From Verrucomicrobiales bacterium (lineage in GTDB: Bacteria; Verrucomicrobiota; Verrucomicrobiia; Limisphaerales; CAIMTB01): a stretch of 64,000 nt of DNA. The stretch is from the NCBI GenBank assembly GCA_016795425.1, contig JAEUHG010000087.1, positions 83,410 through 147,409 of the forward strand, given 5' to 3'. The notes below the pieces were generated by a model. The model was not told the DNA's origin, did not search any database, and saw only the letters and a list, made by a program, of their open reading frames with translations. The first letter of the stretch is position 1. Each line of letters opens with the position of its first letter. The position numbers and the translations under genes were made by a program. Below are positions 40,322 to 55,882 of the stretch, one piece after another.

Positions 40322-40434
40322 GACGTTTCCTTCTTCCTAGTAGCTCCCGAACTAACGACGGGGTCAATCGAGATCTGGAGGTGCCGCGGGAACCGCCTTG
40401 GCGTGGACCGCACGTTGCGTAGTCTAGGCGGCCC

Positions 40435-41715: not shown

Positions 41716-41739
41716 GACCAATGCCTTTTCGCCACAGTT

Positions 41740-42777
41740 TTGTCGCCAGGGACCCCTGAGGCAGCATTTTGGCCGTGGATGAATGCCACCTCGCGGGCTG
41801 GATTGCGGGAGCTGGCAGCGCATGAATCGCCGCTGGTGATGCCTGTTTTGTCGTTCCCTGGGGGACCTCTGACCCGGGTTAAGGTGCGGGAGATGGTGTC
41901 GGATCCGGCGGTTCAAGTGCGGGCTTTGCTGGCGTTGCATCGGCGATTTCAGACCCGGGTGATCCTCGGGTGCATGGACCTCAGCGTGGAAGCTGAGGCT
42001 TTCGGGGCCGAGGTCCAGTTCGTGGACGATGAGGTGCCCCGGGTGACGGGAAGGCGACTGACCTGCCCGGGGGACTTGGAATCCATGAGATCTCCCCAGG
42101 TGGGGGTGGCACGGACGGCGGTGGCCCTGGAGGTGGTGCGCCGGTTGGGATTGGAGGTGCCCGAGGTGCCCGTCCTGGGGGGGGTCACAGGCCCGTTCTC
42201 GCTCGCGGCTCGCCTGTTGGGTGTCAGCGAAGCTTTGATGCTCACCCTGGATCATCCGGAATTCGTCCACGCGGTGGTAAAGAAGTGCACCACCTTCCTG
42301 GTCCGGTATGTGACGGCGTTGAGAGATCGTGGAGCGATCGGGGTGTTGATGGCGGATCCGACGGCGGGATTGCTGGCACCGCGGGCGATGGCCACCTTCG
42401 CCTCACCCTACGTGCGGCGGATCGTGGAGCGCGTGGAGATGCCCGGATTCACCGTGGTACTGCATAATTGCGCGGCGAAGGCGGCGCATCTCCCGGCCCT
42501 GCTGGAAAGCGGCGCCGAAGCGTTTCATTTCGGCGCCCCGATGGATCTGCGTCAGGCGTGTGACCAGGTGCCGCCTGGGCACTTGGTTTGCGGCAACCTG
42601 GATCCGGCCAAGGTCTTTGTGGGTGGCGATCCAGCCAGCGTCACCGAATCCGTGAAGGTATGTCTCGCGAACTTTGGGCGGCGCCCCGGTTACGTGCTGT
42701 CGTCCGGGTGTGATCTGCCGGCCAACACGCCGTTGGCGAATCTGGAAATGTTCTTCAAGGCTGCGCGCCAAGGCTGA
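41740..42777 (+). CDS. Uroporphyrinogen-decarboxylase-fold methyltransferase (MtaA/CmuA-type, Zn motif intact)
   Basis: GGVTGPFSLAARLLG, VVLHNCAAKA (H-x-C) and LSSGCDLP (distal Cys) match the MT2-type methylcobamide methyltransferase Zn site by eye. The start is TTG 41740 or ATG 41779. Confidence 0.8.
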   Translation: MSPGTPEAAFWPWMNATSRAGLRELAAHESPLVMPVLSFPGGPLTRVKVREMVSDPAVQVRALLALHRRFQTRVILGCMDLSVEAEAFGAEVQFVDDEVPRVTGRRLTCPGDLESMRSPQVGVARTAVALEVVRRLGLEVPEVPVLGGVTGPFSLAARLLGVSEALMLTLDHPEFVHAVVKKCTTFLVRYVTALRDRGAIGVLMADPTAGLLAPRAMATFASPYVRRIVERVEMPGFTVVLHNCAAKAAHLPALLESGAEAFHFGAPMDLRQACDQVPPGHLVCGNLDPAKVFVGGDPASVTESVKVCLANFGRRPGYVLSSGCDLPANTPLANLEMFFKAARQG

Positions 42778-42791
42778 CGCAACTTGGGCGT

Positions 42792-44138
42792 TCAGCGCCG
42801 GTTACCCGATGGCGCGGTGATGACGAGGGTGTGTTCGACGGGGACAAAAGCGGCACGGATGGCGGCGGCGAGCGGTTCGCGTTCGGCTTCGGTGCGCTGA
42901 ACCGTGGCTTCCATATTGGATTTGCCGGCGGCTCCGTGGAACTCGCTCTTGATCTGTTTGGTTTCGTAAGCCTGCTTGGCGGCGACGGCTTCGTCGACTT
43001 TCTGGAACGCTTCAGAGAACGGGTTGATTTCGAAATCAGCCGCGAGATTGACGCCTTTGCGCAGGGCGGCGCCGGAGTAGGTGCGGCTCTGTTGTCCCCA
43101 GGTGACCGTGTATTGGGAGGCCTTGGCATCCTTCACGACGAGGCGCAGACGGTTGAATCGTTCCTGAAACGGCACCCATTGCATGCCCGAACGGATGGTA
43201 TTGTCCTTGGTGGGATCGGCGGGGGCGGCGCAGAAGGGATACTTGGAACTCCGTACGGTGATGGTGCCGTCGCGGACGGAACGTATTTGGTGCCCTGGGG
43301 AGGAGGTTGCCGTTCCGTCCCGGAGGTTCACCGAGACCGTGCCGATATCACCGCCCAAGCCGAGTCCATCCAGGAATGCATAGGCCATCACGAGCTGTCC
43401 GGCCCAATCCGGATGAACCCCGTCCTGACCGGGAACGGCGTAGTTCGTGCCGTACTTGGCGCGCGCGGCGCGGTCAGCTTCCCACATCGGGGTGAACACG
43501 TCGGCGAATCCGGCCGAGCGTTCCTCCGCTACCTTCAGGGCGAGATTGCGCAGCTCGGCCAAATTGCGGTTGAGGGCGTCGACGGTGGGGCCTGCATCCT
43601 TCACCCAATGCGGAACTTTGCCGACGGTTCCAGGACTTCCGATCACGACGCGAGCGCCGGCCTTTTGGAAGACACGCACCACGGCGTCCATGTGGATCCG
43701 GTAGAGTTCGCCGATCCAGGGTTCATAGGGACGGTAGCGATGGTCGTTCATCCCGTAACAGGTGGTGGCGATGGTGGGGGTAAAGCGGAGCACATCGTTT
43801 TGCTGGCGCTCGAAGAAGCCGTCCGCCCGCTCCCCGCTCCACCCATATTGCCGCACGCGAATGCCCAGTTCCGGGGTGCAGACGGTGAGGTAGGTCTCGA
43901 GGATGCGGGAGTACATCCGTTGTTCGGTGATGGAATCGCCGCAGATCGCAAGGCGATCGCCGGGGCGCAGCAGCAGGCGCCGGTTCTTGGGGGCCTCGGT
44001 CAGGGCGTAGGGGGCTTCGACGGCCGCTGCGGCACGAGCGGCAGGGAGCCACCCCGGGGCGAAGACCGACCAGGCGATCAGCGCGGAGGCGATCCAAGGG
44101 GGGAGCTGAGACACGCGAGGAATCCGATTGGATTGCAT
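42792..44138 (-). CDS. Secreted SGNH/GDSL-family hydrolase with an extra C-terminal domain
   Basis: I trim the 637-aa ORF to ATG 44138 (MQSNRIPRVSQLPPWIASALIAWSVFA, signal). LAICGDSITEQ is block I with the catalytic Ser. GMNDH, GSPG and DGVHP are later SGNH blocks. The upstream ORF part is Arg/Pro-rich and overlaps uvrA. Confidence 0.75.
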   Translation of the reverse strand: MQSNRIPRVSQLPPWIASALIAWSVFAPGWLPAARAAAAVEAPYALTEAPKNRRLLLRPGDRLAICGDSITEQRMYSRILETYLTVCTPELGIRVRQYGWSGERADGFFERQQNDVLRFTPTIATTCYGMNDHRYRPYEPWIGELYRIHMDAVVRVFQKAGARVVIGSPGTVGKVPHWVKDAGPTVDALNRNLAELRNLALKVAEERSAGFADVFTPMWEADRAARAKYGTNYAVPGQDGVHPDWAGQLVMAYAFLDGLGLGGDIGTVSVNLRDGTATSSPGHQIRSVRDGTITVRSSKYPFCAAPADPTKDNTIRSGMQWVPFQERFNRLRLVVKDAKASQYTVTWGQQSRTYSGAALRKGVNLAADFEINPFSEAFQKVDEAVAAKQAYETKQIKSEFHGAAGKSNMEATVQRTEAEREPLAAAIRAAFVPVEHTLVITAPSGNRR

Positions 44139-44203
44139 GGAACCGCGCCAACCTCCACCGGGATACGCAGCGGGGTCAAGCCGGCGGCTTCCGTCGGAAT
44201 CCC

Positions 44204-47200
44204 TCAAACGAGGAGTCCGCGAAGCGCGCGTCCGGTGTGGCTGTCGGGATGGGCGGCGACGGCTTCCGGCGTGCCGGCGACGACGACCCGGCCTCCATCG
44301 GCGCCGGCTTCGGGGCCGAGGTCGATGATCCAATCGGCACATTTGAGCACTTCGAGGTTGTGCTCGATGATGAGGACCGAATGACCGGCGTCGACCAGGC
44401 GCTGGAAGGCTTGGAGCAGGACGCGGACATCTTCGAAGTGCAGACCGGTGGTGGGCTCGTCGAAGAGGAAAAGAGTGGATTTGGCTGTGACGTCGGTCAC
44501 GGCGTGACGGCTCCGGGCAGTGGGGACCGATCGTTCGGTGGCGGAGGGGGCGAGATGCCCGGCAAGTTTGAGACGCTGACTTTCTCCCCCTGAGAGGGTG
44601 TTGATGGGCTGGCCAAGGCGGAGGTAGCCGAGACCGACTTCCTGAAGAACGCGCAGTCGATCCGCCGCGCGGGAGGCATGGGTGTTGGGGAATTCGGCGA
44701 GCCATTCGAGGGCATCATCGACGGGCAGTTCCAGCGCGTCGGCGATGGAAAGGCCGCCGGACTCGTCGACGTCCGCCACTCCGGGCTTCGCCAACCTGAC
44801 CTGGAGAATGTGGGGACGATAGCGGAGGCCTTCGCAGGCGGGACACCGGATAAAGATGTCGCTGAGAAACTGCATTTCGATCTTCTCGAAACCGGCGCCT
44901 CGGCATTGCTCGCATTGGCCTTGGGCCGAATTGAAGCTGAACGCGCTGGCGCCGAGACCCTGTTGCCGCGCGGCTTCGGTTTGGGCGAAGAGTTCGCGGA
45001 GGTGATCGAAGGCGCCCGTGTACACCGCCGGATTGGAGCGAGGGGTCCGTCCGATGGGGGATTGGTCCACCAAGAGAACCGACGCAATGTGTTCCGCCCC
45101 CAGGATCCGGGCATTGGTGGCCGAGCCCGTGGCCTCCGGGGCTTCTTCGTCGTTTTCCTCCTTCTCCGATTCCTTGGCATCCAGGGAACCTCGGGCCGAT
45201 CCGTCGCCCAACTCCGTTCGAAGCAAATGGAGCAGTTCGCCCACCACTGTGGTTTTGCCGGACCCGCTGACTCCGCTCAGACAGACCAGGCGCCGCAGCG
45301 GGATGTCGAGGTCCAGGTCGACAAGGTTGTGTCGGTTGAGGTTTCGCAAGGCGAGGCAGGGATCGGCGTCGCACGCTGTCGTAGAGGAGAGAGTGCGATA
45401 GGGCAGGACCTGGTCGGCCAGGGCGGCCGGCGAACGGCCAGGATGAGCTGCGTGATGCGACGCGGCACTGGGCACGGGTCGACGCGGTGGAATAGGTATG
45501 CGCAGACGGCCGCTGAGATATCCACCCGTCAGGGATTGGGGATGTCGGGCGATGGCGGCGTAGGAGCCCTGCGCGACCACGTTGCCGCCTTGGGCGCCAT
45601 GGCCTGGGCCCAGGTCGATGATCTGGTCGGCGGCGCGCATGACGGAAGCCTCGTGTTCAACGACCACCACAGTGTTCCCGAGGCTGCGAAGACGGGTGAG
45701 GATGTGAACGAGGCGGTCCGTGTCGCGCGCGTGAAGACCGACACTCGGTTCATCGAGCACGAACAAGGTGTTGACCAGCCGACTTCCGAGGCAGGTGGTC
45801 AGATTGACACGTTGGGTTTCGCCACCGGAGAGCGTGCGGGTGGCGCGGTCGAGCGTGAGGTAACCCACGCCGACCTCGACGAGGAAGCCGAGGCGAGCCT
45901 GGACTTCGGAGAGGGCGAGGTGGATGGGATCGTTGGCTGCCTGGGATGATTGGACGTCCATTTGCCGGACCAGATCCAGAGTGCGATGGATGGGCAGCGC
46001 GTAGAGATCGGCCAAGGTAAGGGTGTGGGCCGTTCCGGCAGGAGGGGTTGCGGAGGGGGCGGGGGGGTGGGGTGGCAACCAACGCCAAAGCAGCGCATCG
46101 GGTTGAAACCGTTGGCCGTCGCAGCTGGGGCATGTCTTGTAGGCGCGGTAACGCGACAACAGCACCCGGACATGCATCTTATAGGCCTTGGATTCGAGCC
46201 AGCGGAAGTAGCCTTTGACCCCGTACCAGGCCTTGGGCCAGGGATTGTCCTCGCCGTAGTCCGGATCGCCCTCAATGACCCAGCGCTGCTGGGCGGCAGT
46301 GAGGTCGCGGAATGGCACCGTCATCGGAATGCCGGACCGCCGTGCCGCCCGGGTCATGTCGGTTTGGCATTCGGCTCCGGTCTCGGTCTGCCAAGGCTTC
46401 ACCGCCCCTTCGGCGAGCGATTTGGAACGGTCGGGAATGGCCAGGTTGTAATCGATGGTGATGATCCGCCCGAACCCTTTGCAGTTCGGACAGGCGCCCA
46501 GCGGGTGATTGTAGCTGAACAGGGCCGGACTGGGCGGTTGGTATTCGAGATCGCACCCGGCGCAGTGAAGGTGGCGCGAGAAGGGGCGCCGCAGGCTCCA
46601 GAGTTCGTCGGAACGGATGTTGGGGTCCGCGACTCGGCCATGGATCTCGAGTTTGCCGTGACCGAAGTGATAGGCTTGTTCGCAGGCCTCGACGAAGCGA
46701 GATCTCTGGCTGGGAGCGATCTTGATGCGGTCCTGGATGACGGTCAGGAACCGGGTAGGGGATTTCTCGAGTCGGGTCCCGGCCTCGTCAATGCGCACCA
46801 CCGAGCCGTCGACCAGGATCCTTTGGAAACCCTGGCGGACCACCAGGGTGAGCTGTTCCTGGAGGGAGAGCTTTGGCGACAAGGGAAGTCGGAAGGTGAC
46901 CAGGAGTTCGGCGGTTTCCTGAGCGACGGCATTCCAGACGTCGCGTGGCGATTCGCGAAGGACCGGTTGTCCGCACTGCCGACAGTGCAATCGGGCGACA
47001 TGAGGCCACAGGAGTTTCAGGTAATCGCAGACCTCGGTCATGGTTCCGACGGTCGACCGGGTGGTGCGAACGGCGTTGCGTTGTTCGAGGGCGATGGCGG
47101 GCGGAATGCCTTCGATGGCATCGACCTTCGGTTTGTCCATCCGGTCGAAGAACTGCCGCGCGTAGGGTGAAAAGGTCTCGATATACCGGCGTTGTCCCTC

Positions 47201-47359
47201 GGCGTAGAGTGTATCGAAGGCAAGAGAGGACTTGCCGGAGCCGGACAGGCCCGTGACCACGATGAGGTTCCGAGTCGGCAGATCCAGGTCGAAGCCCTTG
47301 AGGTTGTTCTGGCGCGCTCCACGGACTTTGATGAGGTCGCGCCCCGACGCTTTGGCCAT
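44204..47359 (-). CDS. uvrA: Excinuclease ABC subunit A family protein (long, divergent form)
   Basis: [50 protein letters not shown], Zn modules CRQCG / CAGCDLEY...CPNCKG / CEQCRGAG...CPACEG, two LSGGE(T/S)QR signatures. 1051 aa with Pro-rich and acidic inserts. Confidence 0.9.
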
Positions 47360-47390
47360 GCGGGGCGGACGATACGGCGGACCGGGGTGG

Positions 47391-47428
47391 AGTCAACGGG
47401 GCGCACCGGGTGGCAAGGTCCGTTGACT
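47391..47428. promoter_or_regulatory. Inverted repeat in the divergent uvrA / corrinoid-protein promoter region
   Basis: agtcaacgg (47391-47399), 20 nt, ccgttgact (47420-47428). The arms are perfect 9-bp repeats. Function is unknown (operator or hairpin). Confidence 0.3.
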
Positions 47429-47491
47429 GCGTTTCACCCCAAGTTAGTTGCTGATCGAGGGGAGGGGCTTTGGAATGAGGGCAAGGCCCCT

Positions 47492-48133
47492 ATGCACGAC
47501 CTGAAAACCCTACATGACGCAATTCTCACCGGCGAGGCAGGTGCCGCGAAGGTGGAAGCCGAACGCGCTTTGGCTGCGGGCGTGGACCCTCTCCAGATCG
47601 TCAATGGCGCAATGATGCCGGCGATGAACGAGGTGGGACGCCGATTCGAGTCGGAGGAGTATTTCGTCCCCGATCTTTTGCTCGCGGCCAGGGCGATGAA
47701 ATCGGCCTTGGAACCGATCCGGCCGCTGTTGGTGGCAGGGAAGATGAGTCAGGCAGGTTGTGTCGTCATCGGGACGGTGAAGGGGGACCTTCACGAAATC
47801 GGAAAGAACCTGGTGGCGGCGATGTTGGAAGGGAACGGCTTCGAAGTTGTGGATCTGGGAGTGGATGTGGCACCCGAGCGCTTTGTGAACGTCGCCCGGG
47901 AGAAGCAGGCGAATATCGTCGCTCTGTCGGCCTTGTTAACCACCACCATGGGCTCCATGAAGGCGACGGTGGAGGCCATTCACAAGGCCGGCCTCAAAGG
48001 AAAGGTCAAGGTGTTGGTCGGCGGGGCACCCATCTCGCAGACCTTCGCGGATTCGATCGGCGCCGATGGATTCAGCGACAATGCCGTTGGGGCGGTGGCG
48101 CTCGCGCGTCGGGTCCTGGGCCAGGCCGCGTGA
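47492..48133 (+). CDS. Corrinoid (B12)-binding protein, MtaC/MtbC-like
   Basis: I trim the start to ATG 47492. N-terminal helical cap (VDPLQIVNGAMMPAMNEVGRRFESEEYFVPDLLLAARAM), then a Rossmann B12 domain with GDLHEIG (DxHxxG), SALLTTT and VLVGGAP. Confidence 0.85.
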   Translation: MHDLKTLHDAILTGEAGAAKVEAERALAAGVDPLQIVNGAMMPAMNEVGRRFESEEYFVPDLLLAARAMKSALEPIRPLLVAGKMSQAGCVVIGTVKGDLHEIGKNLVAAMLEGNGFEVVDLGVDVAPERFVNVAREKQANIVALSALLTTTMGSMKATVEAIHKAGLKGKVKVLVGGAPISQTFADSIGADGFSDNAVGAVALARRVLGQAA

Positions 48134-51021
48134 GTCGGAACCAGGCGTGGGCGCAAACCAGACCCGTGAACCGGCGAATCCCCGGATCGGTGTGGTGTAG
48201 CGGTTGGCGGCGCCCGGCGTTGCTCGGCTGCTGCCTGATTCTCGGGTGCCTGAGCCTGAGCGCGGGTGCGGCATCGGTCGAGGAAGTGGTGGTGGTCTTC
48301 AAGACCCACTTCGATATCGGCTATACCGACATGGCGTCCAACGTCGTGAATCGCTATCGCACGACGATGATGGACGGCGCCTTGGAGGTGGTGGAGGCGA
48401 GCCGGGACCTGCCGGCGGAGCAGCGATTTGTCTGGACCCTGGCCGGTTGGCCGATGGCGCAGATTCTGAAGAACGACGGGTTCGCGGGTGCCGCCCGGTT
48501 GGCACGCATTCAGTCAGCAATGGCGGAGGGACGGTTCGTCGTGCATGGATTGCCGTTTACCACGCATACCGAGTTGCTGGAGTTGGAAGATCTCGTGCGT
48601 GGACTGGAATATTCTCGTCGGATGGCAGTCGCCGCCGGCCAGGCACTTCCGCGCGACGCGAAAATGACGGATGTACCCAGCCATTCCTGGGTCATCCCGA
48701 CCTTGCTGCGGCGGGCCGGCATCGAGTTCCTTCACCTGGGCTGCAACGCGGCCAGCCGGTCGCCGGCGGTGCCCCGGTTGTTTTGGTGGGAGGGACCCGA
48801 TGGATCGCGGGTCCTGACAATGTACACCGCCGAGAGCTACGGGACGGGCTTGGTGCCGCCGCCGGACTGGCCCCATCGCACCTGGCTCGCGCTGATCCAC
48901 ACGGGAGATAACCACGGTCCACCCACGCCGAACGAGGTGCGCTCCATGATGGCCGAGGCGGCCTTGAAATTGCCTGGGATTCGGGTGCGAATCGGACGCC
49001 TCTCCGATTTTGCCGATGCGTTGCGAGCCGAGCAACCATCCCTGCCGATCATTCGCGGCGATATGCCGGACACTTGGATTCATGGGCCGATGAGCGATCC
49101 GGCGGGTGCGGCGTTGGCCCGTCGGACCCGGCCGGAACTTTCGACGGCTGAGTCGCTGCACACGCTGTTGGGAATCTGGGGAGCGGACCAGAATTGGCCG
49201 AAGGCGGGAGTCGATCGTGCGTTCGAAGGGAGCTTATTGTACGGCGAGCATACCTGGGGCGGCGGTCAGTATTGGATTCGCCGATACACCGACCCGGGAG
49301 GATTCCCCTATGATGAAACTTGGAGAGCCTGGCGAACTCAGCCGGCGGTCCGTCGCCTCGAAGGCTCCTGGGAGGAACACACCGATTACATCCGCCGCGC
49401 CTCCGCCTGGAGCCGTGCCTGGTTACGGGACGGTCTAAAGCGATTGGCACGGTCGGTGGCGGTTGAGGGACGCCGGGTCGTGGTGTTCAACCCATTGCCA
49501 TGGGAACGCGATGACGAGGTCACATTGGATGAGGATTTCCCGGGAGACATCGAGGGCTTGCGACCGGTGAAGGGGGGCGCGGGGGACGGCATCGAGAGGG
49601 TTGATCGTCGGGGTGGCCGGGCAACTTTCGTGGCGCGCAGGGTACCTGGTCTCGGCTATCGCACCTACGTGCCCGCCCATGCCGGAAAAGGGGCAGTGCG
49701 GGACGGGATTCGCTGCGATGCCGATGCGGGAGTGCTGGAGAATTCGCATTTCCGACTCGTTCTCGACTCGGAGCGGGGGGCGATTCGCTCAATGGTCGAA
49801 AGGCGATCCGGCCGGGAGTGTGTCGATGCCTCGAGTCCCCACGGATTCGGCGCGTTTCTCTACGAGCGCTATTCGCGCCGCGAGGTGGACCAGTTTGTCG
49901 CGGACTATGTGAAAATCAGCGCCGATTGGGCGACCAACGAGTTGGGCAAGCCGCTGATGCCCTCGGCGGACGAGGTGCCCTACCGGGCGGAATCGGTGCG
50001 AGGTTTCGAGGTGGAATATCATCGGACTCCGATCGGCGTGGAGGCGGTGATGAAGTCACGTGTGGCGGTTGGGGGCGACGCGGCGGCGCCGTCGGGCTGC
50101 GGCGTGACCCTGCGGGTTCGGCTGCCGGCGAACCTGCCGTGGGTGGAACTGGAAATGACCCTGACCGACAAGGCAGCGCGTCCGTGGCCGGAGGCCGGAT
50201 GGTGGTGTCTGCCGTTTCGGATCGAATCGCCCGAGTTTCGCTTGGGCCGGTTGGGAGGAGTGGTGAATCCAGCGGCGGATCTCGTGCCCGGTTCGAACCA
50301 TGAGTTGTTTGCCTTGAACGGTGGGATGATCGTGGTCGGCGCGCGAGGGGAGGGGCTGGGTTTGTGTTCCCTGGACGCCCCGTTAGTGAGCCTGGGTCGG
50401 ACCGGTTGCTGGCGGTATACGACCCGATGGAAGGAACGCGATGCCTCCGTGTATGTGAACCTGTTCAACAACCAATGGACGACGAATTTCCGGTTTTGGA
50501 ATGAAGGCACCTGGACCTATCGGCTGCGGTTGTGGGCAATCCCATCCCAGGCCCCGATCCGCGAAAGTCTGACGGTCCCGTCCCTCGAGGCGCGTTGGCC
50601 CCTGCGCGGCACGATGACGGAGGGAGGACGCGGGACTTTGCCGCCGAACCAGGAGGGGCTTTCGGTTTCGGAACGAGGCGTGTTGGTGACGAGTTTCGGT
50701 CGGTCGCCCGCTGACGACGTTGGAGTGCTGGGTGGCTATTCGGGGCCCGCAATGTTGCCGACGGAGAGTGCTGCGGCGCCGGGCAAGGTGCGGTTGCGGC
50801 TTTGGGATCAGTCCGGGGGCGAGGGCAGCCGGAGGACGATCCGGGTGCGGCTACCCAAGGGTTTTGAGGATGCTGAGATCCACCGGACCGACCTGCGCGG
50901 GCAACCGGAAGGGCGTGTGGCTCGGCGGGCGGGGAGGTTCTTTCAGTACGAGATGGAACCTTGGGCTCCGGCAACCTTTGAATTTCGAACCCCTGGATCT
51001 GAATCGGCAACGACTCCATGA
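48130..51021 (+). CDS. GH38-like (alpha-mannosidase-fold) glycoside hydrolase family protein, secreted
   Basis: Start taken as GTG 48130, overlapping the corrinoid stop (GTGA). Signal ALLGCCLILGCLSLSAGAAS. VVVFKTHFDIGYTD, GRFVVHGLPFTTHTELLELEDLVRGLEY and AKMTDVPSHSWVIPTLLRRAGIEFLHLG follow the order of GH38 N-domain blocks by eye. The exact family is uncertain. Confidence 0.7.
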   Translation: MSRNQAWAQTRPVNRRIPGSVWCSGWRRPALLGCCLILGCLSLSAGAASVEEVVVVFKTHFDIGYTDMASNVVNRYRTTMMDGALEVVEASRDLPAEQRFVWTLAGWPMAQILKNDGFAGAARLARIQSAMAEGRFVVHGLPFTTHTELLELEDLVRGLEYSRRMAVAAGQALPRDAKMTDVPSHSWVIPTLLRRAGIEFLHLGCNAASRSPAVPRLFWWEGPDGSRVLTMYTAESYGTGLVPPPDWPHRTWLALIHTGDNHGPPTPNEVRSMMAEAALKLPGIRVRIGRLSDFADALRAEQPSLPIIRGDMPDTWIHGPMSDPAGAALARRTRPELSTAESLHTLLGIWGADQNWPKAGVDRAFEGSLLYGEHTWGGGQYWIRRYTDPGGFPYDETWRAWRTQPAVRRLEGSWEEHTDYIRRASAWSRAWLRDGLKRLARSVAVEGRRVVVFNPLPWERDDEVTLDEDFPGDIEGLRPVKGGAGDGIERVDRRGGRATFVARRVPGLGYRTYVPAHAGKGAVRDGIRCDADAGVLENSHFRLVLDSERGAIRSMVERRSGRECVDASSPHGFGAFLYERYSRREVDQFVADYVKISADWATNELGKPLMPSADEVPYRAESVRGFEVEYHRTPIGVEAVMKSRVAVGGDAAAPSGCGVTLRVRLPANLPWVELEMTLTDKAARPWPEAGWWCLPFRIESPEFRLGRLGGVVNPAADLVPGSNHELFALNGGMIVVGARGEGLGLCSLDAPLVSLGRTGCWRYTTRWKERDASVYVNLFNNQWTTNFRFWNEGTWTYRLRLWAIPSQAPIRESLTVPSLEARWPLRGTMTEGGRGTLPPNQEGLSVSERGVLVTSFGRSPADDVGVLGGYSGPAMLPTESAAAPGKVRLRLWDQSGGEGSRRTIRVRLPKGFEDAEIHRTDLRGQPEGRVARRAGRFFQYEMEPWAPATFEFRTPGSESATTP

Positions 51022-52388
51022 ACGACAACTCCCGAAGCTCCGGAACCAATGTTGGCTACCTGCTGTTGATCAGCCTGGTGGCTGCGTTTGGTGGATTCTT
51101 GTTTGGCTATGACACCGCGGTGGTGTCCGGGGCGATCGGATTCCTGAAGGCGCATTTTCAATTGAGCGCGGATTTGACGGGGTGGGCCGCATCGAGCGTT
51201 CTGATTGGTTGCATGATGGGGGCCATGATGGGTGGTCCGATCGGCGATCGGTTCGGACGCAAAGCCAGTTTGATGCTCTGCGCCGGCCTGTTTTTCGTGT
51301 CCTCGCTGGCCTCCGCGGTTCCCACGACCCTCAGTCAATTTGCCTGGGCTCGCTTCATGGGCGGATTGGCGATTGGCGCGGCCTCCATTCTATCACCGAT
51401 CTACATCGCGGAAATTGCGCCCGAACGCATGCGGGGCCGGTTGGTGTCGCTGTACCAATTGGCGATCGTGATCGGGATCTTGGCGGTGTTCTTTGTGAAT
51501 CTTCAGATCCAACGGTACGGCGACACCCAATGGAACACGCAGACCGGCTGGCGGTGGATGTTTGCCTCGTTGACGCTGCCCTCGGCGCTGTTCGGATTGC
51601 TGATGGGATTGGTGCCGGAGAGTCCGCGATGGTGGATGAAGGTCGGCAAGCCCGAGAAGGCGAGGCGGATTTTGGAGAAGATCGGGGGCCCTGCGAATGC
51701 GGCGCGGGAGGTGGCGGAGATCGAGAGCGCCTTGCGGCTGGAGCAGGGGCGCTGGTCGGAGTTGTTTGCGGGAGGGTATGGCCGGGCGCTGTTGGTCGGT
51801 GCGTTGCTGGCGATCTTCAGTCAATTCAGCGGCATCAACGCGATCATGTACTATGGCCCAGAGGTCTTCAAAACGGCCGGGGTGGGCCAGGACGCCGCGT
51901 TTGTACAAACGGTGACGGTCGGGGCGATCAACGTCCTGTTCACGTTCGTGGCCATTGGATTCGTGGATCGATGGGGGCGCCGGGCCCTGCTGCTCATCGG
52001 TACCTCGGTGCAGACGCTGGCCCACGCCATGGTGGGATGGTGTTTTGCCACCGGCCGTAACGATGCCGTGCTGTTGGGGGGCATTCTTATCTTTGTGGCG
52101 GCCTTCGCCATGGCGATGGGACCGGTGTCTTGGATCGTGAATGCCGAGATTTTTCCCACGAAACTGCGTGGTCGCGCGATGGCGATTTCCATCTTCCTGC
52201 TATGGCTGGCGTGTTACCTGGTCTCGCAGACGTTTCCAATGCTGGTCGAAGCAATCGGGCCCGCCAGGACGTTTTGGGTTTACGGCGGTTGCAGTCTGGT
52301 GAGTTTCGTGTTCGTGCTGCTGATGGTTCCGGAGACGAAGGGCAAGACGCTCGAGGAAATTCAGGCGCATTGGAACCGGGGGCGGTGA
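51018..52388 (+). CDS. Sugar-porter-family MFS transporter
   Basis: GGFLFGYDTAVVSGA, GDRFGRK, PESPRWW, PETKGKTLEEI are classical sugar porter motifs. The ATG overlaps the GH38-like stop (ATGA). Confidence 0.9.
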   Translation: MNDNSRSSGTNVGYLLLISLVAAFGGFLFGYDTAVVSGAIGFLKAHFQLSADLTGWAASSVLIGCMMGAMMGGPIGDRFGRKASLMLCAGLFFVSSLASAVPTTLSQFAWARFMGGLAIGAASILSPIYIAEIAPERMRGRLVSLYQLAIVIGILAVFFVNLQIQRYGDTQWNTQTGWRWMFASLTLPSALFGLLMGLVPESPRWWMKVGKPEKARRILEKIGGPANAAREVAEIESALRLEQGRWSELFAGGYGRALLVGALLAIFSQFSGINAIMYYGPEVFKTAGVGQDAAFVQTVTVGAINVLFTFVAIGFVDRWGRRALLLIGTSVQTLAHAMVGWCFATGRNDAVLLGGILIFVAAFAMAMGPVSWIVNAEIFPTKLRGRAMAISIFLLWLACYLVSQTFPMLVEAIGPARTFWVYGGCSLVSFVFVLLMVPETKGKTLEEIQAHWNRGR

Positions 52389-52464
52389 GGGGTGGGGAAG
52401 AGGGAAGAGCGACGGGTGACTTGGTGTGCGGGGGCCGTGTTCGCCCTTCCCGCTTCCCCACCCC
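52389..52464. terminator. Large G-rich/C-rich hairpin between convergent genes (candidate bidirectional terminator)
   Basis: ggggtggggaagagggaagagcg (52389-52411) pairs with cgcccttcccgcttccccacccc (52442-52464) at 21/23 positions, with a 30-nt loop. It starts at the first base after the MFS stop. There is no U-tract. Confidence 0.5.
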
Positions 52465-52488
52465 CACCCTTCCCTCCCGGATCAACCA

Positions 52489-54657
52489 TCAAGGCCGCGG
52501 GTAGACGGAGGAAGTGCAGTGGACGGCTCCGAATTTGCGTTGGGATTCGGCAGACCGGATGGGTTGGATCTTGCGTTGAGGACCCAGGGCCTTGCGGAAG
52601 GCGTCGGCGGCGGCGCGGTCCAGTGGGGTGTAGAAGCCGCCGAAAACCGGCATCACATAGCCTCCGGCGTGTTGGATCCCGTTGAGGTAGTTGATGGCAT
52701 AATGAAGCTCGGTGAGGCTCGGAATGGGAATGAGTTGAAAACCAAGTTCCCGCAGGCGGCCCGCCTGAGACGCACGGGCTTCTTCGATCCGGCGCAAGGC
52801 CTGTAGATATAGGCCTCGGGGCGAATCAGGGGCGGACGTGGTCGTTGACGGCAGCGAAACCTCCAACAGGTCGGCTGCCACCAGGAATGTCTGAAGGTTG
52901 CGGGCGGCGCTGTCCGTGGTGTCGATGACAAAGCACCGGGAGACCGCTTCCGCAATTCCGTCGGGCCCACGAGGGAGCCGGGAGAGGAGTTGCGTCAAGG
53001 CTTGGGAAAGACCCGGAGCATCGTTGACGGCCAATCGTTGCTCGGCGTTTCGCAGGGCATTGGTATCGATGCCGGGCGCCTTGGCCAACGCCGCCAGGCC
53101 GAGGCCCAGGATGATGCGCACGGCGGCAGGATGGTCATTGACGAAGGCCAGCGGCTTTTCGCCATCGGTGCGCAGGTTGACATCGTAGTCGAGATGGTAC
53201 GAAACGGATGGCAACACCTCGCACCGACTGGCGCCGAACTCGCGTCGGAAGGCTTCGATTGCCTGCTCCCGTGTGAGACCGAGGGCGACGTTGCGATAGA
53301 TCTCGCCTTCCCCGACCAGCAGGACCGGGCGCGGGGATGAAGGGTCCGCGACCGGCATGACGTTGCCGCCCTGGAAGAGCAGCGAGGAATGGAGGACGGG
53401 ATGCCCAGCGGCGGCGAGCCCATCCATCAAAAACGACTCCGCGGGCATGAACTGCGATGCGCCTTCGTCGATGCAGGCATAGCGAGGGACCAGGGTGGCG
53501 GGCACGGCGTTGGTGGGGTTCGGCGGACGCGCGAGCAGACCGCCCTTGCCGTTGTCCTGCGCCCATGAAGACATCCGGTACGGTTCGACGCACAGGGTGA
53601 CTTGGTGGACCCGTCGAAGGCGCCACAATGTCTTGGCCATCCACTCGACTCCGTCCGCGGCGATCTGCGGCACGCTGATGATGAAGTCCGCGTTGGGGAA
53701 CGCCTCCACCAGTTGGTACAAGACATCCAGAACATCGCCCGGGATCAGGCCGTCGCTCCAGCCGCCCCCCGCCTGAAGTCGGAGGAGACCCACCTCGTGA
53801 CGTCCGCATTCACTGGCGACGATGAAATCGGGTGCACTGGGCTGAAAGTCGAACTCGGCGCTCTTGAGCGAGGCGATGAGGTCGTTGAGGGGAGTGCCGG
53901 CGGCAAGGCGCCGGCTAATGGTCCTCACGATCTCAAGTTCGGTTCCCTTTGGTGCCGCGGCTCCTTCGGGCGGATAGCGAAAGTGGCGAAGAAGGTCCGT
54001 GGGAAGTCCCAGCACCTGCAGGCGTGCGAGGTCGGGCGTGCCGGGGCCGAGGATTTGGAGAACGTGGGCGAGCGTCGGGAGAAGTCCGTCGGACGCGAGT
54101 CGGCGCTCGATCCAAGCGGCCGCCTCGGCATCGGCGCCAGTGGGCGGAGGCAACACCCACCAGAGATTGGAGCCCGCGGTTTGGCGATGGTCGAGAATGG
54201 GGGCGCGGAACCCACGGGGCGGCACGGCGTTGCTGGGGCAAGTCGCGCGCAGCTGCTCGATGGACGCTTCCCGCTCCGCTTTCAGGACCCGCACGAATTT
54301 TCCGACGCGGCCACGGGCAGTGAACTCCTTGGATGGCATTGGGCCGATGCTGGGAGCGGCCCGGTATTGGCGGTTTTGAAAGGAGTCAATGAGGCGGCGG
54401 TCATTGAAGCGCTGAAGGAGGTGGTCGGGCAGCCCGTAGTTGGTGAGGACCGAGGCGGAAACCGATTCCCGGACGATCGTTTCGGCGGAGGCGCGGAAGG
54501 AGACGGTTGGGAGTGAGAGAACCAGCAGGAGGACAAGAGCCGGGAACGTCGGGATTGGCCGGCACCGAACGCCGGCGATGACCGAGGGCTGTGTGGGCGG
54601 GGTGAGGCGCGTTCCGGACGAGGAACGTGGGCGCGTAGGTACAGAGGCGTCGCGCAT
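52489..54657 (-). CDS. Secreted/periplasmic protein with a C-terminal agmatine-deiminase/PAD-like (guanidino-modifying, pentein) domain and an unknown ~330-aa N-terminal region
   Basis: 722 aa. Signal/TM PALVLLLVLSLPTVSFRASA. The C-terminal half has, in order, SWAQDNGKGG, FQGGNVMPVADP..LLVGEGEIYRN, SVSYHLDYDVNL, NYLNGIQHAGGYVMPVFGG..PLDRAAADAFRKALGPQRKIQPI and GAVHCTS. The putative catalytic Cys codon is at 52516-52518. Confidence 0.65.
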   Translation of the reverse strand: MRDASVPTRPRSSSGTRLTPPTQPSVIAGVRCRPIPTFPALVLLLVLSLPTVSFRASAETIVRESVSASVLTNYGLPDHLLQRFNDRRLIDSFQNRQYRAAPSIGPMPSKEFTARGRVGKFVRVLKAEREASIEQLRATCPSNAVPPRGFRAPILDHRQTAGSNLWWVLPPPTGADAEAAAWIERRLASDGLLPTLAHVLQILGPGTPDLARLQVLGLPTDLLRHFRYPPEGAAAPKGTELEIVRTISRRLAAGTPLNDLIASLKSAEFDFQPSAPDFIVASECGRHEVGLLRLQAGGGWSDGLIPGDVLDVLYQLVEAFPNADFIISVPQIAADGVEWMAKTLWRLRRVHQVTLCVEPYRMSSWAQDNGKGGLLARPPNPTNAVPATLVPRYACIDEGASQFMPAESFLMDGLAAAGHPVLHSSLLFQGGNVMPVADPSSPRPVLLVGEGEIYRNVALGLTREQAIEAFRREFGASRCEVLPSVSYHLDYDVNLRTDGEKPLAFVNDHPAAVRIILGLGLAALAKAPGIDTNALRNAEQRLAVNDAPGLSQALTQLLSRLPRGPDGIAEAVSRCFVIDTTDSAARNLQTFLVAADLLEVSLPSTTTSAPDSPRGLYLQALRRIEEARASQAGRLRELGFQLIPIPSLTELHYAINYLNGIQHAGGYVMPVFGGFYTPLDRAAADAFRKALGPQRKIQPIRSAESQRKFGAVHCTSSVYPRP

Positions 54658-54664
54658 GACGCGA

Positions 54665-55879
54665 TCACTCGTAGCGCAAAGCTTCGATGGGATCGAGATT
54701 GGCGGCCTTGAGCGCGGGGAAGAACCCGAACACCACGCCGATGATGGCGCTGACCGAGAACGCGAGGATGACCGAGGAGTTCGAGATGAGGGTAGGGAAC
54801 CCGGCGAACTTGGTCAGCAGCGGGGCGAGCCAGTATCCGGTGCCGATGCCTAGAGCCCCGCCGACGACGCTGAGCAGGACGGCTTCCGTGAGGAACTGTC
54901 TGAGGACATCACGGGCACGGGCGCCGACGGCAAGTCGGATGCCGATTTCACGGGTCCGTTCGGTGACGCTGACCAGCATGATATTCATGATGCCGATGCC
55001 GCCGACGACCAGGGAGATGCCGGCAAAGGCGCCAATGAGCAGGGTCATGATTCGATTGCTGGCGTTGGCAAAGTCGCTCATCTCCTGTTGCGAGCGAATC
55101 GAGAAATCGTCCTCACGGTCGGGAGTAATCTGGTGATTCTGACGCAGGATGGCGGCGATCTGGTTGGTCACTTCAGTGAGCACTTCCGCCGAGGCGAACT
55201 GGACGTTGAAGGCGCGGAATTTGGTATCCCCGGACAGGCGTTTCATGGCGCTGGTGTACGGCATGAGAATGCAATCGTCCTGGTCCGAACCAAAGGCGTT
55301 GGCGCCCTTGGCTGCCAACCAGCCCACGACCGTGAACGGGACATTCTTGATGCGGACAATTTGTCCGACGGGATCGATGCCTTCGCCGAACAGGGCCGTG
55401 GCGGTGGTTTTGCCGAGGAGACAGACCTTGTTGGCCGCCTGCACATCGAGTTCAGTGAAATTGTCGCCCGATTGGAATTTCCAGGACCGAATGTCGGCGT
55501 AATCGGCACTGACCCCCCAGATGCTCACTTGGGTGTTCTGATTGCCGGCGGCGACCTGAGCGCTGGTGCGGACTTCCGGACTGATACCGGCGAGGCCCTG
55601 TACTTCGCGTCGCAGGGTCTCGTAATCGCGATCGGTGAGCGTGGGCGACATGCCGAATCCGCCTCGCACGCCGCCGCGCGACATGTTTCCCGAGAAGATG
55701 ATGAGCAGATTGTTGCCCATGCTGGCGATCTGCTTGTCCACCTCGGCCTTGGCGCCGGCGCCCATGCTGACACCGACGATGACAGCGGAGATGCCGACGA
55801 TGATGCCAAGCATGGTGAGGAACGACCGGAGGATGTTCCTTCGAATGGCGCGGAGGGCGGTCTTGAAAATGGCGAACAT
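54665..55879 (-). CDS. ABC transporter permease, FtsX/MacB-type (second paralogue)
   Basis: 404 aa. LRSFLTMLGIIVGISAVIVGVSMG, and C-terminal GAFAGISLVVGGIGIMNIMLVSVTERTREIGIRLAVGAR...DPIEALRYE. Confidence 0.9.
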   Translation of the reverse strand: MFAIFKTALRAIRRNILRSFLTMLGIIVGISAVIVGVSMGAGAKAEVDKQIASMGNNLLIIFSGNMSRGGVRGGFGMSPTLTDRDYETLRREVQGLAGISPEVRTSAQVAAGNQNTQVSIWGVSADYADIRSWKFQSGDNFTELDVQAANKVCLLGKTTATALFGEGIDPVGQIVRIKNVPFTVVGWLAAKGANAFGSDQDDCILMPYTSAMKRLSGDTKFRAFNVQFASAEVLTEVTNQIAAILRQNHQITPDREDDFSIRSQQEMSDFANASNRIMTLLIGAFAGISLVVGGIGIMNIMLVSVTERTREIGIRLAVGARARDVLRQFLTEAVLLSVVGGALGIGTGYWLAPLLTKFAGFPTLISNSSVILAFSVSAIIGVVFGFFPALKAANLDPIEALRYE

Positions 55880-55882
55880 GAT

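What the first reader, a model, noticed from the sequence alone, without database searches (positions are those of the whole stretch)
47492..52388. B12-binding corrinoid protein translationally coupled to a secreted GH38-like hydrolase and a sugar MFS porter
Seen directly:
- Three plus-strand genes are chained by 4-bp overlaps (GTGA at 48130-48133, ATGA at 51018-51021).
- The first is a standalone MtaC-like corrinoid protein with an intact DxHxxG (GDLHEIG), SxL (SALLTTT) and GG (VGGAP) B12 site.
- The second is a signal-peptide-bearing GH38-fold protein.
- The third is a classical sugar porter.

Established knowledge: MtaC-like proteins act as methyl carriers between two methyltransferases. 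They are not known partners of glycoside hydrolases.

Inference: together with the MtaA-type gene at 41740-42777, this looks like a possible undescribed route. A methylated glycan would be hydrolysed outside, the methyl-sugar imported by the MFS porter, and the sugar O-demethylated by a corrinoid relay. Alternatively the B12 protein could be a cofactor- or light-sensing regulator of the sugar genes.
Basis: partly seen in the sequence, partly recalled or inferred. Interest (0 to 1): 0.6.

Follow-up and report, generated by a model that had tools for sequence, protein, structure and literature searches.

The report
B12 carrier beside sugar-uptake genes
A soil/freshwater Verrucomicrobium keeps its only free-standing vitamin-B12 methyl-carrier protein in one operon with an exported mannosidase-like enzyme and a sugar importer. 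Related genomes show this is a remnant of a larger gene cluster that may strip methyl groups from sugars without oxygen, a reaction for which I found no published enzyme.

Summary
The three plus-strand genes exist as described.
- 47492-48133: an MtaC/MtbC-type corrinoid protein with an intact DxHxxG/SxL/GG site.
- A 951-aa exported protein with a full GH38 alpha-mannosidase fold and a conserved nucleophile Asp.
- 51018-52388: a sugar-porter MFS.

The claimed GTGA overlap between genes 1 and 2 is not supported. The conserved start is GTG 48166, a 32-nt gap, and the 92 %-identical relatives carry an in-frame stop that rules out overlap. The ATGA overlap of genes 2 and 3 is conserved.

The corr/GH38 adjacency is confined to a narrow clade. 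In relatives the fuller cluster is PMI-like, corr, 419-aa URO-D methyltransferase ("c10"), sugar porter b, (GH38-like), sugar porter a. In this genome c10 and porter b have moved to another contig.

They are six non-HemE URO-D proteins (three beside GH27, GH95 or a porter), a stand-alone homocysteine S-methyltransferase, RACo and DUF1638.

All 34 c10-bearing genomes in a sample of 300 from the phylum also have a corr-type protein.

Best reading (about 0.45): a shared B12 carrier for O-demethylation of imported methyl-sugars, with homocysteine as the methyl sink.

This scan has noted the same theme before on other DNA. I found no paper describing it.

The parts
47360..47491 (+). Divergent control region and 5' leader between the UvrA-paralogue gene (minus strand) and the corr operon
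   Evidence: No Rfam family, including the cobalamin riboswitch, matches at E<=1. The predicted fold is not better than shuffles (z -1.7). The only sigma-70-like match here points to the minus strand.
47492..48133 (+). Stand-alone methyltransferase-type corrinoid (B12) carrier protein, 213 aa; the only one in the genome
   Evidence: PF02607 + PF02310. Best NCBIfam hits are MtgC, TIGR02370 and MtbC, all below their cut-offs. DLHEIG, SAL and GG motifs are present. tblastn of the whole genome finds only this copy plus MetH on C261. More than 8000 homologues at E<1e-30, mostly from Verrucomicrobiota.
48134..48165 (+). 32-nt spacer between corr and the hydrolase gene (not an overlap)
   Evidence: Junction comparison with L074, L075, L161 and L162: an in-frame TGA in the 92 % relatives, and a GTG start conserved in all.
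48166..51021 (+). Exported GH38-fold (DUF5054-type) glycoside hydrolase-like protein, 951 aa, revised start
   Evidence: Pfam GH38N and DUF5054. AF2 model pLDDT 83.7. Foldseek finds GH38 alpha-mannosidases 5kbp and 2wyh at TM 0.66-0.71. The profile alignment puts invariant D169 on the Bl_Man38A nucleophile (the residue mutated in 7ufu), D248 on GDGGGGP and H362 on FHD.
51018..52388 (+). Sugar-porter-family MFS transporter ('MFSa'), start overlapping the hydrolase stop (ATGA)
   Evidence: PF00083 1.5e-122. TIGR00879 above its cut-off. The overlap is kept in L074, L075 and L161. Orthologues at 72-89 % identity lie beside corr and/or c10 in G004, G006, L077, L161 and L172.
52373..52482 (.). Long G+C-rich hairpin between the convergent MFS gene and the 722-aa gene; probable two-way terminator that ends the operon
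   Evidence: MFE -73.2 kcal/mol, z -3.9, 0 of 200 shuffles fold as well. Its only Rfam matches are sub-threshold miRNA-precursor models, which simply reflect a long hairpin.
41740..42777 (+). URO-D family (MtaA/CmuA-like) protein, 4.7 kb upstream; one of six non-HemE URO-D genes in the genome
   Evidence: PF01208 2e-59. NCBIfam MtaA/CmuA 123 bits, below the 235 cut-off. HNC motif at residue 242. Synteny with corr is kept only in the close clade (L074, L162). Orthologues in 8 relatives are not near corr.
42792..44138 (-). GDSL/SGNH esterase-like gene convergent with the URO-D gene (context only)
   Evidence: PF13472 1.6e-15. Same position in L074 and L162.

Best explanation
Genes 47492-52388 form one operon: corrinoid carrier, exported GH38-fold glycosidase, sugar porter. 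It ends at a strong hairpin.

The first product is the genome's single free-standing B12 methyl-carrier protein. It serves a dispersed corrinoid methyl-transfer network whose other parts lie on other contigs:
- six URO-D-family methyltransferase candidates. One of them, c10, is paired with a second sugar porter on C164. Others sit beside an exported GH27 and a GH95;
- a stand-alone homocysteine S-methyltransferase;
- a RACo reductive activase;
- DUF1638.

The corr/GH38 adjacency is what remains of a larger cluster still seen in relatives: PMI-like, corr, c10, porter b, GH38-like, porter a. In this genome c10 and porter b were relocated.

Proposed mechanism:
1. The exported GH38-fold enzyme releases a mannoside-type sugar carrying an O-methyl ether.
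2. The MFS porters import it.
3. A URO-D-family enzyme (c10 type, with an HxC...H metal site) passes the methyl group to Co(I) of the carrier.
4. The methyl-Co(III) carrier is discharged onto homocysteine, giving methionine.
5. RACo re-reduces oxidised carrier.

Shown: gene content, folds, motifs, synteny and co-occurrence. Inferred: co-transcription, export, the substrate (methyl-sugar), the direction of methyl flow and the acceptor.
For: CARRIER IDENTITY
- Domains and motifs fit a methyltransferase corrinoid protein.
- It is the only copy in the genome.

CONSERVED PARTNERS OF CORR IN RELATIVES
- Hcy S-methyltransferase directly downstream, URO-D, RACo and DUF1638.
- All of these are present but scattered in this genome.

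CLUSTER FORMS
- L077: c13, corr, c10, MFSb, GH38-like, MFSa.
- L172/L173 and G006: c13, corr, c10, MFSb, MFSa, seen on at least 18 public contigs.
- G004: c13, corr, MFSa.
- G000, L074 and L161: corr, GH38-like, MFSa.

c10 DEPENDS ON A CORRINOID PROTEIN
- 34/34 c10-positive genomes in an even sample of 300 from the phylum have a corr-type protein, against 139/300 overall.
- 9 of 9 in the order sample.
- corr lies within 6 kb of 9 of 38 c10 loci, mostly directly upstream.

c10 IS LINKED TO SUGAR UPTAKE
- A sugar porter lies within 2.5 kb on the same strand at 6 of 10 orthologues in the order.
- 9 of 38 loci in the phylum sample and about 13 of 80 loci across phyla, plus SSS symporters, sulfatases and beta-helix proteins.
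- In G000, other URO-D genes abut GH27/NPCBM and GH95 genes.

OTHER
- The GH38 fold and catalytic Asp are conserved.
- c13 resembles mannose-6-P isomerase (1qwr, 1e-9).
- c10 keeps the MtaA HxC motif, with an invariant His in place of the distal Cys.
Against: - No biochemical or expression data.
- corr/GH38 adjacency is restricted to a narrow clade. 0 of 14 other GH38-like loci examined have corr, c10 or this porter type next to them, except G033, which has MFS + c13.
- In the phylum sample the corr-linked and the porter-linked c10 loci do not overlap. The joint cluster is so far a feature of this genus-level group.
- Corrinoid-dependent cleavage of an aliphatic (sugar) methyl ether has no published precedent that I could find. 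Known MT1 substrates are aryl methyl ethers, methanol, methylamines, methyl halides and methyl thiols.
- Sugar-porter-family transporters also carry cyclitols and other polyols.
Confidence: 0.45

Rival explanations
1. Adjacency without shared function. The carrier serves a split, MetH-like methionine synthase fed by non-sugar methyl donors such as methanol, methoxylated aromatics or methylamines. GH38-like + MFS is an ordinary mannoside-uptake pair. The two came together by rearrangement in one lineage.
For: - The most widespread neighbour of corr is the Hcy S-methyltransferase, often with no sugar gene nearby (L078, L174).
- GH38-like orthologues elsewhere lack corr.
- GH38-like + MFS (+c13) occurs without corr in G033 and G034.
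- The gene 1 / gene 2 overlap is not real.
Against: - The MFSa orthologue stays with corr in 7 of 8 lineages seen, including those that lack the GH38-like gene.
- c10, the URO-D type that sits directly behind corr, is itself repeatedly paired with sugar porters in several phyla.
- Three further URO-D genes of this genome abut a glycosidase or a sugar porter.
Confidence: 0.3
2. Same machinery, different substrate class. The porters import methylated cyclitols (pinitol-type) or glycosides of methoxylated aromatics, and the URO-D enzymes demethylate those. The GH38-fold enzyme acts on something unrelated to methylation.
For: - The sugar-porter family includes inositol carriers (established knowledge).
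- Gfo/Idh/MocA and AP_endonuc_2 (inositol-pathway-like) genes lie in some corr/URO-D clusters (L175).
- All characterised URO-D-type MT1 enzymes that act on ethers use aryl methyl ethers (PMC10418091, PMC13222342).
Against: - Gfo/Idh/MocA genes are very numerous in these genomes, with more than 50 tblastn hits in G000, so chance adjacency is likely.
- The best NCBIfam match of both porters is XylE.
- The neighbours are glycosidases, sulfatases and a PMI-like gene rather than aromatic-ring enzymes.
Confidence: 0.15
3. The B12-binding protein is a cofactor- or light-sensing regulator, or a B12 store or chaperone, that controls or supplies the sugar genes.
For: - It is the first gene of the operon.
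- Stand-alone B12-binding-domain regulators are known (CarH and AerR types; established knowledge).
- The CarH model gives a weak hit (E 2.6e-12).
Against: - It has no DNA-binding or partner-binding extension.
- Methyltransferase-corrinoid models score 170-206 bits against 46.6 bits for CarH.
- The family is consistently clustered with URO-D methyltransferases, Hcy S-methyltransferase, RACo and DUF1638.
- None of the neighbouring sugar genes is a known B12 enzyme.
Confidence: 0.04

Closest known systems
Anaerobic three/four-component O-demethylase systems (MT I of the URO-D superfamily such as OdmB/VdmB, corrinoid protein, MT II, activating enzyme) of Acetobacterium, Moorella and Desulfitobacterium, and the related CdmBCA chloromethane system (PMC13222342)
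   Same: - A separate corrinoid carrier with cap + Rossmann domains.
- URO-D-fold candidate MT I enzymes.
- An ATP-dependent RACo-type activase in the genome.
- The weak best PDB hit of the c10 profile is CdmB (9rui, E 0.13).
   Different: - No pterin-binding MT II lies in or near the clusters. A homocysteine S-methyltransferase takes that place.
- The neighbours are sugar porters and glycosidases, not aromatic-compound genes.
- The hosts are Verrucomicrobiota and other non-acetogens.
- The components are scattered over at least 6 contigs here.
- c10 is too far from any characterised MT I for sequence to assign a substrate.
Cobalamin-dependent methionine synthase MetH (as a split system)
   Same: A B12 cap + B12-binding module (MetH model hit 1.4e-41), plus a separate PF02574 homocysteine-binding module directly downstream in many relatives. 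One relative even carries a stand-alone MetH activation domain, PF02965, in the cluster (L175).
   Different: - The methyl-THF (pterin) module is replaced by URO-D-family proteins.
- Reactivation is by RACo rather than the SAM domain in most clusters.
- A complete MetH exists separately on C261.
Type 1 mlp gene clusters (Kountz and Balskus, PMC10418091)
   Same: [quoted passage not shown]
   Different: - Those clusters are reported only from obligate anaerobes, mostly Firmicutes. They are compact and are proposed to act on methyl-sulfur or methyl-selenium compounds.
- Here the link is to sugar porters and glycosidases, with an Hcy methyltransferase.
- Orthology to Mlp1-3 was not tested.
CYP236A-type P450 sugar O-demethylases of marine Bacteroidota (PMC6292453)
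   Same: The proposed physiological role: removing O-methyl groups that block sugar catabolism, encoded beside glycan-degrading genes.
   Different: Unrelated chemistry (O2-dependent hydroxylation that releases formaldehyde) and an unrelated protein family. No P450 lies in this locus.
GH38 alpha-mannosidases (Streptococcus pyogenes SpGH38 2wyh, Enterococcus faecalis 5kbp, Bifidobacterium longum Bl_Man38A 7ufr)
   Same: Full-length fold (TM 0.66-0.71). The nucleophile Asp, the GD motif and the His/Asp metal ligands are aligned and invariant.
   Different: - Only 11-15 % identity, and phmmer finds no PDB relative.
- It belongs to the DUF5054-bearing clade.
- It has an N-terminal export signal, whereas these three bacterial enzymes are, as far as I know, cytoplasmic.
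- Substrate unknown.

Membership tests
Methyltransferase-cognate corrinoid proteins (MtaC/MtbC/MtgC; TIGR02370) | N-terminal B12-binding_2 cap plus Rossmann B12-binding domain | tested here: met
   PF02607 5.6e-22 and PF02310 2e-27, both above their cut-offs.
Methyltransferase-cognate corrinoid proteins (MtaC/MtbC/MtgC; TIGR02370) | Base-off/His-on motif DxHxxG with SxL and GG | tested here: met
   D99-LHEIG, S146-AL and G177-G read from the translation.
Methyltransferase-cognate corrinoid proteins (MtaC/MtbC/MtgC; TIGR02370) | Score above the curated family cut-off | tested here: not met
   TIGR02370 187.7 bits against a cut-off of 215.3. MtgC 205.8 against 370. MtbC 172.5 against 350. It is a related but distinct subfamily.
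Methyltransferase-cognate corrinoid proteins (MtaC/MtbC/MtgC; TIGR02370) | Encoded with cognate methyltransferases and an activase | tested here: met
   In relatives corr is adjacent to URO-D, PF02574, RACo and DUF1638. In this genome the same genes are present but unlinked.
Methyltransferase-cognate corrinoid proteins (MtaC/MtbC/MtgC; TIGR02370) | Binds a corrinoid and cycles Co(I)/CH3-Co(III) | not testable with these tools
   Needs expression and UV-vis spectroscopy.
Glycoside hydrolase family 38 | GH38 N-terminal catalytic domain | tested here: met
   PF01074 36.9 bits against a cut-off of 25, covering 180 of 270 profile positions.
Glycoside hydrolase family 38 | Full multi-domain GH38 architecture | tested here: met
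   Foldseek top 40 hits are all GH38, TM 0.59-0.71 over about 1000 aligned columns. The model has pLDDT 83.7.
Glycoside hydrolase family 38 | Catalytic nucleophile Asp, acid/base Asp and metal-binding His/Asp | tested here: met
   The profile alignment puts invariant D169 on the Asp that is Ala in the Bl_Man38A nucleophile mutant (7ufr against 7ufu), D248 on GDGGGGP and H362 on FHD. H48-x-D50 is invariant. This rests on alignment, not on a structural superposition.
Glycoside hydrolase family 38 | GH38 central/C-terminal Pfam domains, or a CAZy HMM assignment | tested here: inconclusive
   PF07748 and PF17677 are not detected in this protein. They are recorded for some 50 %-identical homologues. 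No dbCAN/CAZy library was available.
Sugar porter family of MFS (TIGR00879) | Score above the family cut-off | tested here: met
   411.6 bits against 237.8. PF00083 410 bits. The XylE equivalog is not reached (445 against 608).
Corrinoid-dependent O-demethylase system (MT I + CP + MT II + AE) | Pterin-binding methyl-corrinoid:THF methyltransferase (MT II) associated with the system | tested here: not met
   PF00809 occurs only in a FolP-like gene (C168), in MetH (C261) and in one 319-aa ORF on C98, none of them near system genes. Relatives have PF02574 at that position instead.
Corrinoid-dependent O-demethylase system (MT I + CP + MT II + AE) | ATP-dependent reductive activase (RACo/RamA type) | tested here: met
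   C217:24849-26366 is 55 % identical to a cluster-encoded protein with Fer2 + Raco_middle + RACo_C_ter domains.
Translationally coupled gene pair (overlapping stop/start) | The start codon of the downstream gene overlaps the upstream stop, and the arrangement is conserved | tested here: not met
   corr/hydrolase: the conserved start is 32 nt downstream, and relatives have an in-frame stop. hydrolase/MFS: the ATGA overlap is met and conserved.
Type 1 mlp gene cluster (PMC10418091) | Mlp2 and Mlp3 orthologues with a corrinoid protein and Ram/RACE in one cluster | not tested
   No Mlp reference sequences were compared. The cluster layout and the hosts differ.

The most novel reading that the evidence does not exclude
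The locus is part of an oxygen-independent, B12-dependent pathway that removes O-methyl ethers from sugars. An exported GH38-fold enzyme frees a methyl-mannoside-type sugar and dedicated sugar porters import it. A new URO-D-family methyltransferase (c10, with an HxC...H metal site) moves the methyl group to a shared corrinoid carrier. The methyl group then goes directly onto homocysteine, so methylated glycans would double as a methionine/methyl source.
Probability: 0.35. Interest if true: 0.8.

Novelty: new variant of a known kind. Interest (0 to 1): 0.55.

Why it matters
O-methylated sugars are common in plant, algal, fungal and bacterial glycans, and the methyl group blocks ordinary sugar catabolism. 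The only demethylation route described in the papers I could search is an O2-dependent P450 (PMC6292453).

A corrinoid route would explain how many bacteria of soils, peat, sediments and guts handle these sugars. The c10 family occurs at 50 % identity or more in Verrucomicrobiota, Planctomycetota, Acidobacteriota, Bacteroidota, Chloroflexota and others. Such a route would extend corrinoid methyl-transfer chemistry to aliphatic ethers and would link glycan degradation to methionine supply and B12 demand.

For this particular locus the practical gain is smaller. It corrects one gene start. It shows that the corr/GH38 pairing is a derived remnant rather than a conserved couple. It points to the c10-porter pair as the unit to test. 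The GH38-like and PMI-like neighbours give a substrate hint (a mannose-type sugar).

Tried and rejected
- Exact look-up of the window's corr protein in public contigs found nothing. The genome's own records are left out.
- phmmer of the GH38-like protein and of c10 against PDB gave nothing useful. Profiles and a fold search were needed.
- NCBIfam has no model for the GH38-like protein, the GDSL protein or the 722-aa protein.
- An Rfam scan of 40000-56000 at E<=1 found no riboswitch. Its only hits were spurious miRNA-precursor matches on one hairpin.
- The promoter/terminator consensus scan gave no more sites than shuffles and none between the three genes.
- The 9-bp inverted repeat and leader fold is not significant (z -1.7).
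- Five literature searches found no corrinoid-dependent sugar demethylase. PMC9765461 was opened and is irrelevant.
- My first two GC3-based gene callers mis-called the corr gene and were replaced. Neighbourhoods were therefore cross-checked by tblastn and by the gene calls of the look-up of encoding contigs.
- I rejected the gene at 41740 as the dedicated partner, because its synteny holds only in the close clade.
- I rejected reading c13 as part of the methyl module. It travels with GH38-like genes without corr (G033, G257).
Full report
WHAT IS THERE

The window is contig C204:83410-147409 of an 8.8-Mb, 301-contig genome. Names on closely related public records are 'Verrucomicrobiales bacterium' and 'Verrucomicrobiota bacterium'.

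Three plus-strand ORFs occupy 47492-52388.
- Gene 1 (213 aa) has the B12-binding_2 cap and the B12-binding Rossmann domain. It has the DLHEIG, SAL and GG motifs. Its best curated-model hits are methyltransferase corrinoid proteins (MtgC 206 bits, TIGR02370 188, MtbC 173), all below their cut-offs. CarH scores only 47 bits.
- Gene 2 hits GH38N, and DUF5054 just below its threshold.
- Gene 3 is a sugar-porter-family MFS, XylE-like but below the equivalog cut-off.

A strong hairpin at 52373-52482 (-73 kcal/mol, z -3.9) separates the operon from a convergent gene. No Rfam family, including the cobalamin riboswitch, matches upstream.

THE OVERLAP CLAIM

I compared the gene 1 / gene 2 junction with four public contigs that carry the same operon.
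- In L074, L075 and L162 (corr 92 % identical) a TGA lies in the hydrolase frame immediately after the corr stop, so overlap is impossible there.
- All sequences share a GTG 32 nt downstream of the corr stop (window 48166), followed by the conserved peptide M-[N/S]-R-R-[I/T]-P-G-S.
- The product on record for this genome (P0123, 951 aa) starts there too.

The GTGA overlap is therefore an artefact of taking the longest ORF. The genes are close (32 nt) but not overlapping. The ATGA overlap of the hydrolase and MFS genes is kept in L074, L075 and L161.

THE HYDROLASE

- A 37-sequence alignment gave an AlphaFold model with pLDDT 83.7 and pTM 0.88. Residues 1-34 are disordered, which fits an export signal. 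The N-terminus is Arg-rich followed by a hydrophobic stretch and AGA/AS. This was judged by eye.
- The top 40 Foldseek PDB hits are all GH38 alpha-mannosidases. The best are the E. faecalis (5kbp) and S. pyogenes (2wyh) enzymes at TM 0.66-0.71 and about 12 % identity.
- A profile search aligns the invariant D169 with the Asp of Bl_Man38A that is replaced in the 'nucleophile mutant' entry 7ufu. It aligns D248 with the GDGGGGP motif and H362 with FHD. H48-x-D50 is invariant.
- I conclude that this is a divergent but probably active GH38-fold glycosidase of the DUF5054 clade. The clade has more than 2500 members at E<1e-20, mostly from Verrucomicrobiota and Planctomycetota. Some are fused to other GH domains.

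IS THE CORR/GH38 PAIR CONSERVED?

Not broadly.
- In 60 relatives of the same order, GH38-like orthologues (39-69 % identity) occur in 8 genomes. None of the 7 loci I fetched has corr nearby.
- In an even sample of 300 genomes of the phylum, 7 have a strong match, and none has corr, c10 or this porter beside it.
- The pairing is found in G000, in L074/L075/L162 (a 92 % relative with the same wider synteny: tyrS, URO-D, GDSL, UvrA paralogue | corr, GH38-like, MFS), and in L161 (corr 92 %, hydrolase 70 %, MFS 89 % identical).

WHAT CORR USUALLY SITS WITH

Twenty corr loci from relatives were gene-called and clustered, and representatives were scanned. The recurrent neighbours are:
- a 293-aa homocysteine S-methyltransferase (PF02574), directly downstream in 9 loci and in L078 and L174;
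- URO-D-family proteins of several types (c3, c7, c10);
- a RACo reductive activase;
- DUF1638.

One relative also carries a stand-alone MetH activation domain in the cluster (L175).

In same-genus relatives corr is flanked by a 605-627-aa protein with a mannose-6-P-isomerase-like C-terminal half (c13; 1qwr, E 1e-9) and followed by sugar porters.
- G004: c13, corr, MFSa.
- G006/L081 and L172/L173: c13, corr, c10, MFSb, MFSa (at least 18 public contigs).
- L077: c13, corr, c10, MFSb, GH38-like, MFSa.

Deleting or relocating c10 and MFSb from the L077 layout gives exactly the window's order. G000 does carry c10 and MFSb as an overlapping two-gene unit on C164:20299-22925. The corr/GH38 adjacency is therefore best read as a remnant of a larger cluster.

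THE DISPERSED NETWORK IN THIS GENOME

G000 has one stand-alone corr plus MetH, a true HemE, and six other URO-D-family genes:
- the window's gene at 41740;
- c10 on C164, beside MFSb;
- c3 and a second URO-D gene on C190, with DUF1638, followed by an exported NPCBM + GH27 alpha-galactosidase-like gene;
- c7 on C124, back-to-back with a GH95-family gene;
- one on C274.

The Hcy S-methyltransferase is on C219 and RACo is on C217. Pterin-binding domains occur only in a FolP-like gene, in MetH and in one unlinked ORF. The likely methyl sink is homocysteine rather than THF.

c10 AS THE LINK BETWEEN B12 AND SUGARS

The c10 family is conserved at 50 % identity or more across many phyla (80 loci).
- Across those 80 loci, a sugar-porter MFS is adjacent in about 13, an SSS symporter in 5, and the corr machinery in about 14. 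Sulfatases, beta-helix proteins and Gfo/Idh/MocA genes also recur.
- In the order sample, 6 of 10 c10 orthologues have an MFSb-type porter within 2.5 kb on the same strand.
- In the even phylum sample, 34 genomes have c10 and all 34 also have a corr-type protein, against 139 of 300 overall. Of 38 c10 loci (+-6 kb), 9 have corr (mostly directly upstream), 9 an MFS porter, 7 RACo, 5 DUF1638 and 4 the Hcy methyltransferase.
- These genomes are related to one another, so the counts are not independent, and no probability is attached to them.
- c10 keeps the HxC of the MtaA zinc site (aligned to 4ay7) and has an invariant His where MtaA has the distal Cys. Its nearest solved relatives (CdmB, MtaA, UroD) match only marginally, at E 0.1-0.3.

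MECHANISM AND HOW SURE I AM

I am fairly sure (about 0.8) that gene 1 is a methyl-carrier corrinoid protein shared by several URO-D-type enzymes, and that the three genes are one operon.

I am less sure (about 0.45) of the physiological reading, which has five steps:
1. The exported GH38-fold enzyme trims a glycan.
2. The porters import an O-methylated sugar.
3. A URO-D-type enzyme methylates Co(I) of the carrier.
4. The PF02574 enzyme passes the methyl group to homocysteine.
5. RACo repairs oxidised carrier.

The chemistry is plausible by analogy with MtaB, which activates methanol with zinc (established knowledge). It has no precedent for sugar ethers in the papers I could search. The PMI-like and GH38-like neighbours hint at a mannose-type sugar. 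This is inference only.

The main rival (0.3) is that the adjacency carries no functional meaning. A substrate variant (cyclitols or aromatic glycosides) gets 0.15, and a sensor or storage role 0.04.

RELATION TO EARLIER NOTES OF THIS SCAN

The scan has already flagged sugar-porter-linked URO-D/corrinoid modules in several other genomes, with the same tentative reading, and split MetH-like cassettes that feed homocysteine. One note saw the same His-for-Cys replacement in a 420-aa URO-D enzyme. These are AI notes, not independent evidence. I reached the same reading from this window's own comparisons. Two notes on this window (the 41740 gene and the inverted repeat at 47391-47428) were checked only in passing.

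LIMITS

- No signal-peptide or CAZy HMM tool was available.
- Gene calls in relatives come partly from my own GC3-based caller, cross-checked by tblastn.
- The catalytic-residue mapping rests on a profile alignment, not on a superposition.

Noticed in passing
window 52373-52482: About 100-nt G+C-rich, near-perfect hairpin between the convergent MFS gene and the 722-aa gene (MFE -73 kcal/mol, z -3.9). It draws only sub-threshold miRNA-precursor Rfam matches. Probably a two-way terminator.
   Followed up: partly
window 44204-47359 (minus strand): A 1051-aa UvrA-paralogue gene (UvrA_DNA-bind, UvrA_inter and ABC domains) is divergent from the corr operon. It keeps that position in L074, L161 and L162. 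Its function and any link to the operon are unknown.
   Followed up: no
window 52489-54657 (minus strand): A 722-aa protein with only a weak C-terminal PAD_porph (agmatine/peptidyl-arginine deiminase-like) match, 26.9 bits. A 732-aa gene without any Pfam hit lies at the same place in L161.
   Followed up: no
G000 contig C190:70170-77626: DUF1638, URO-D, a DUF1559-like gene on the minus strand, URO-D (c3), an exported NPCBM + GH27 alpha-galactosidase-like gene, and a 321-aa secreted protein of unknown family that overlaps it by 4 bp. This is a second URO-D/glycosidase pairing in the same genome.
   Followed up: partly
G000 contig C124:56662-60711: A 500-aa URO-D-family gene (c7) lies back-to-back with a GH95-family gene (PF22124, 1.4e-53).
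   Followed up: partly
L175:434-10098: A metagenome cluster with a stand-alone MetH activation domain (PF02965), two Gfo/Idh/MocA genes, AP_endonuc_2, Hcy S-methyltransferase, URO-D, corr and URO-D. A SAM-type reactivation module takes the place of RACo.
   Followed up: no
L182 (G257:C1:613000-632900): Four GH38-like paralogues nearly in tandem, preceded by the PMI-like c13 gene and without any corr or c10. This shows that c13 belongs to the sugar module.
   Followed up: partly
homologues P0135, P0138, P0170, P0197: Some 50 %-identical members of the GH38-like clade are fused to GH20 (PF00728), PF14683 or PF17167/PF22422 glycosidase domains.
   Followed up: no
window 47391-47428: The 9-bp inverted repeat that another note flagged forms the stem of the leader hairpin in the MFE fold, but the fold of 47360-47495 is not better than shuffles (z -1.7).
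   Followed up: partly
P0004: The closest public corr homologue (93 % identity) is labelled 'Nitrospira sp.' on a 2.5-kb contig, while all other close relatives are Verrucomicrobiota. This is probably a binning error in that MAG.
   Followed up: no
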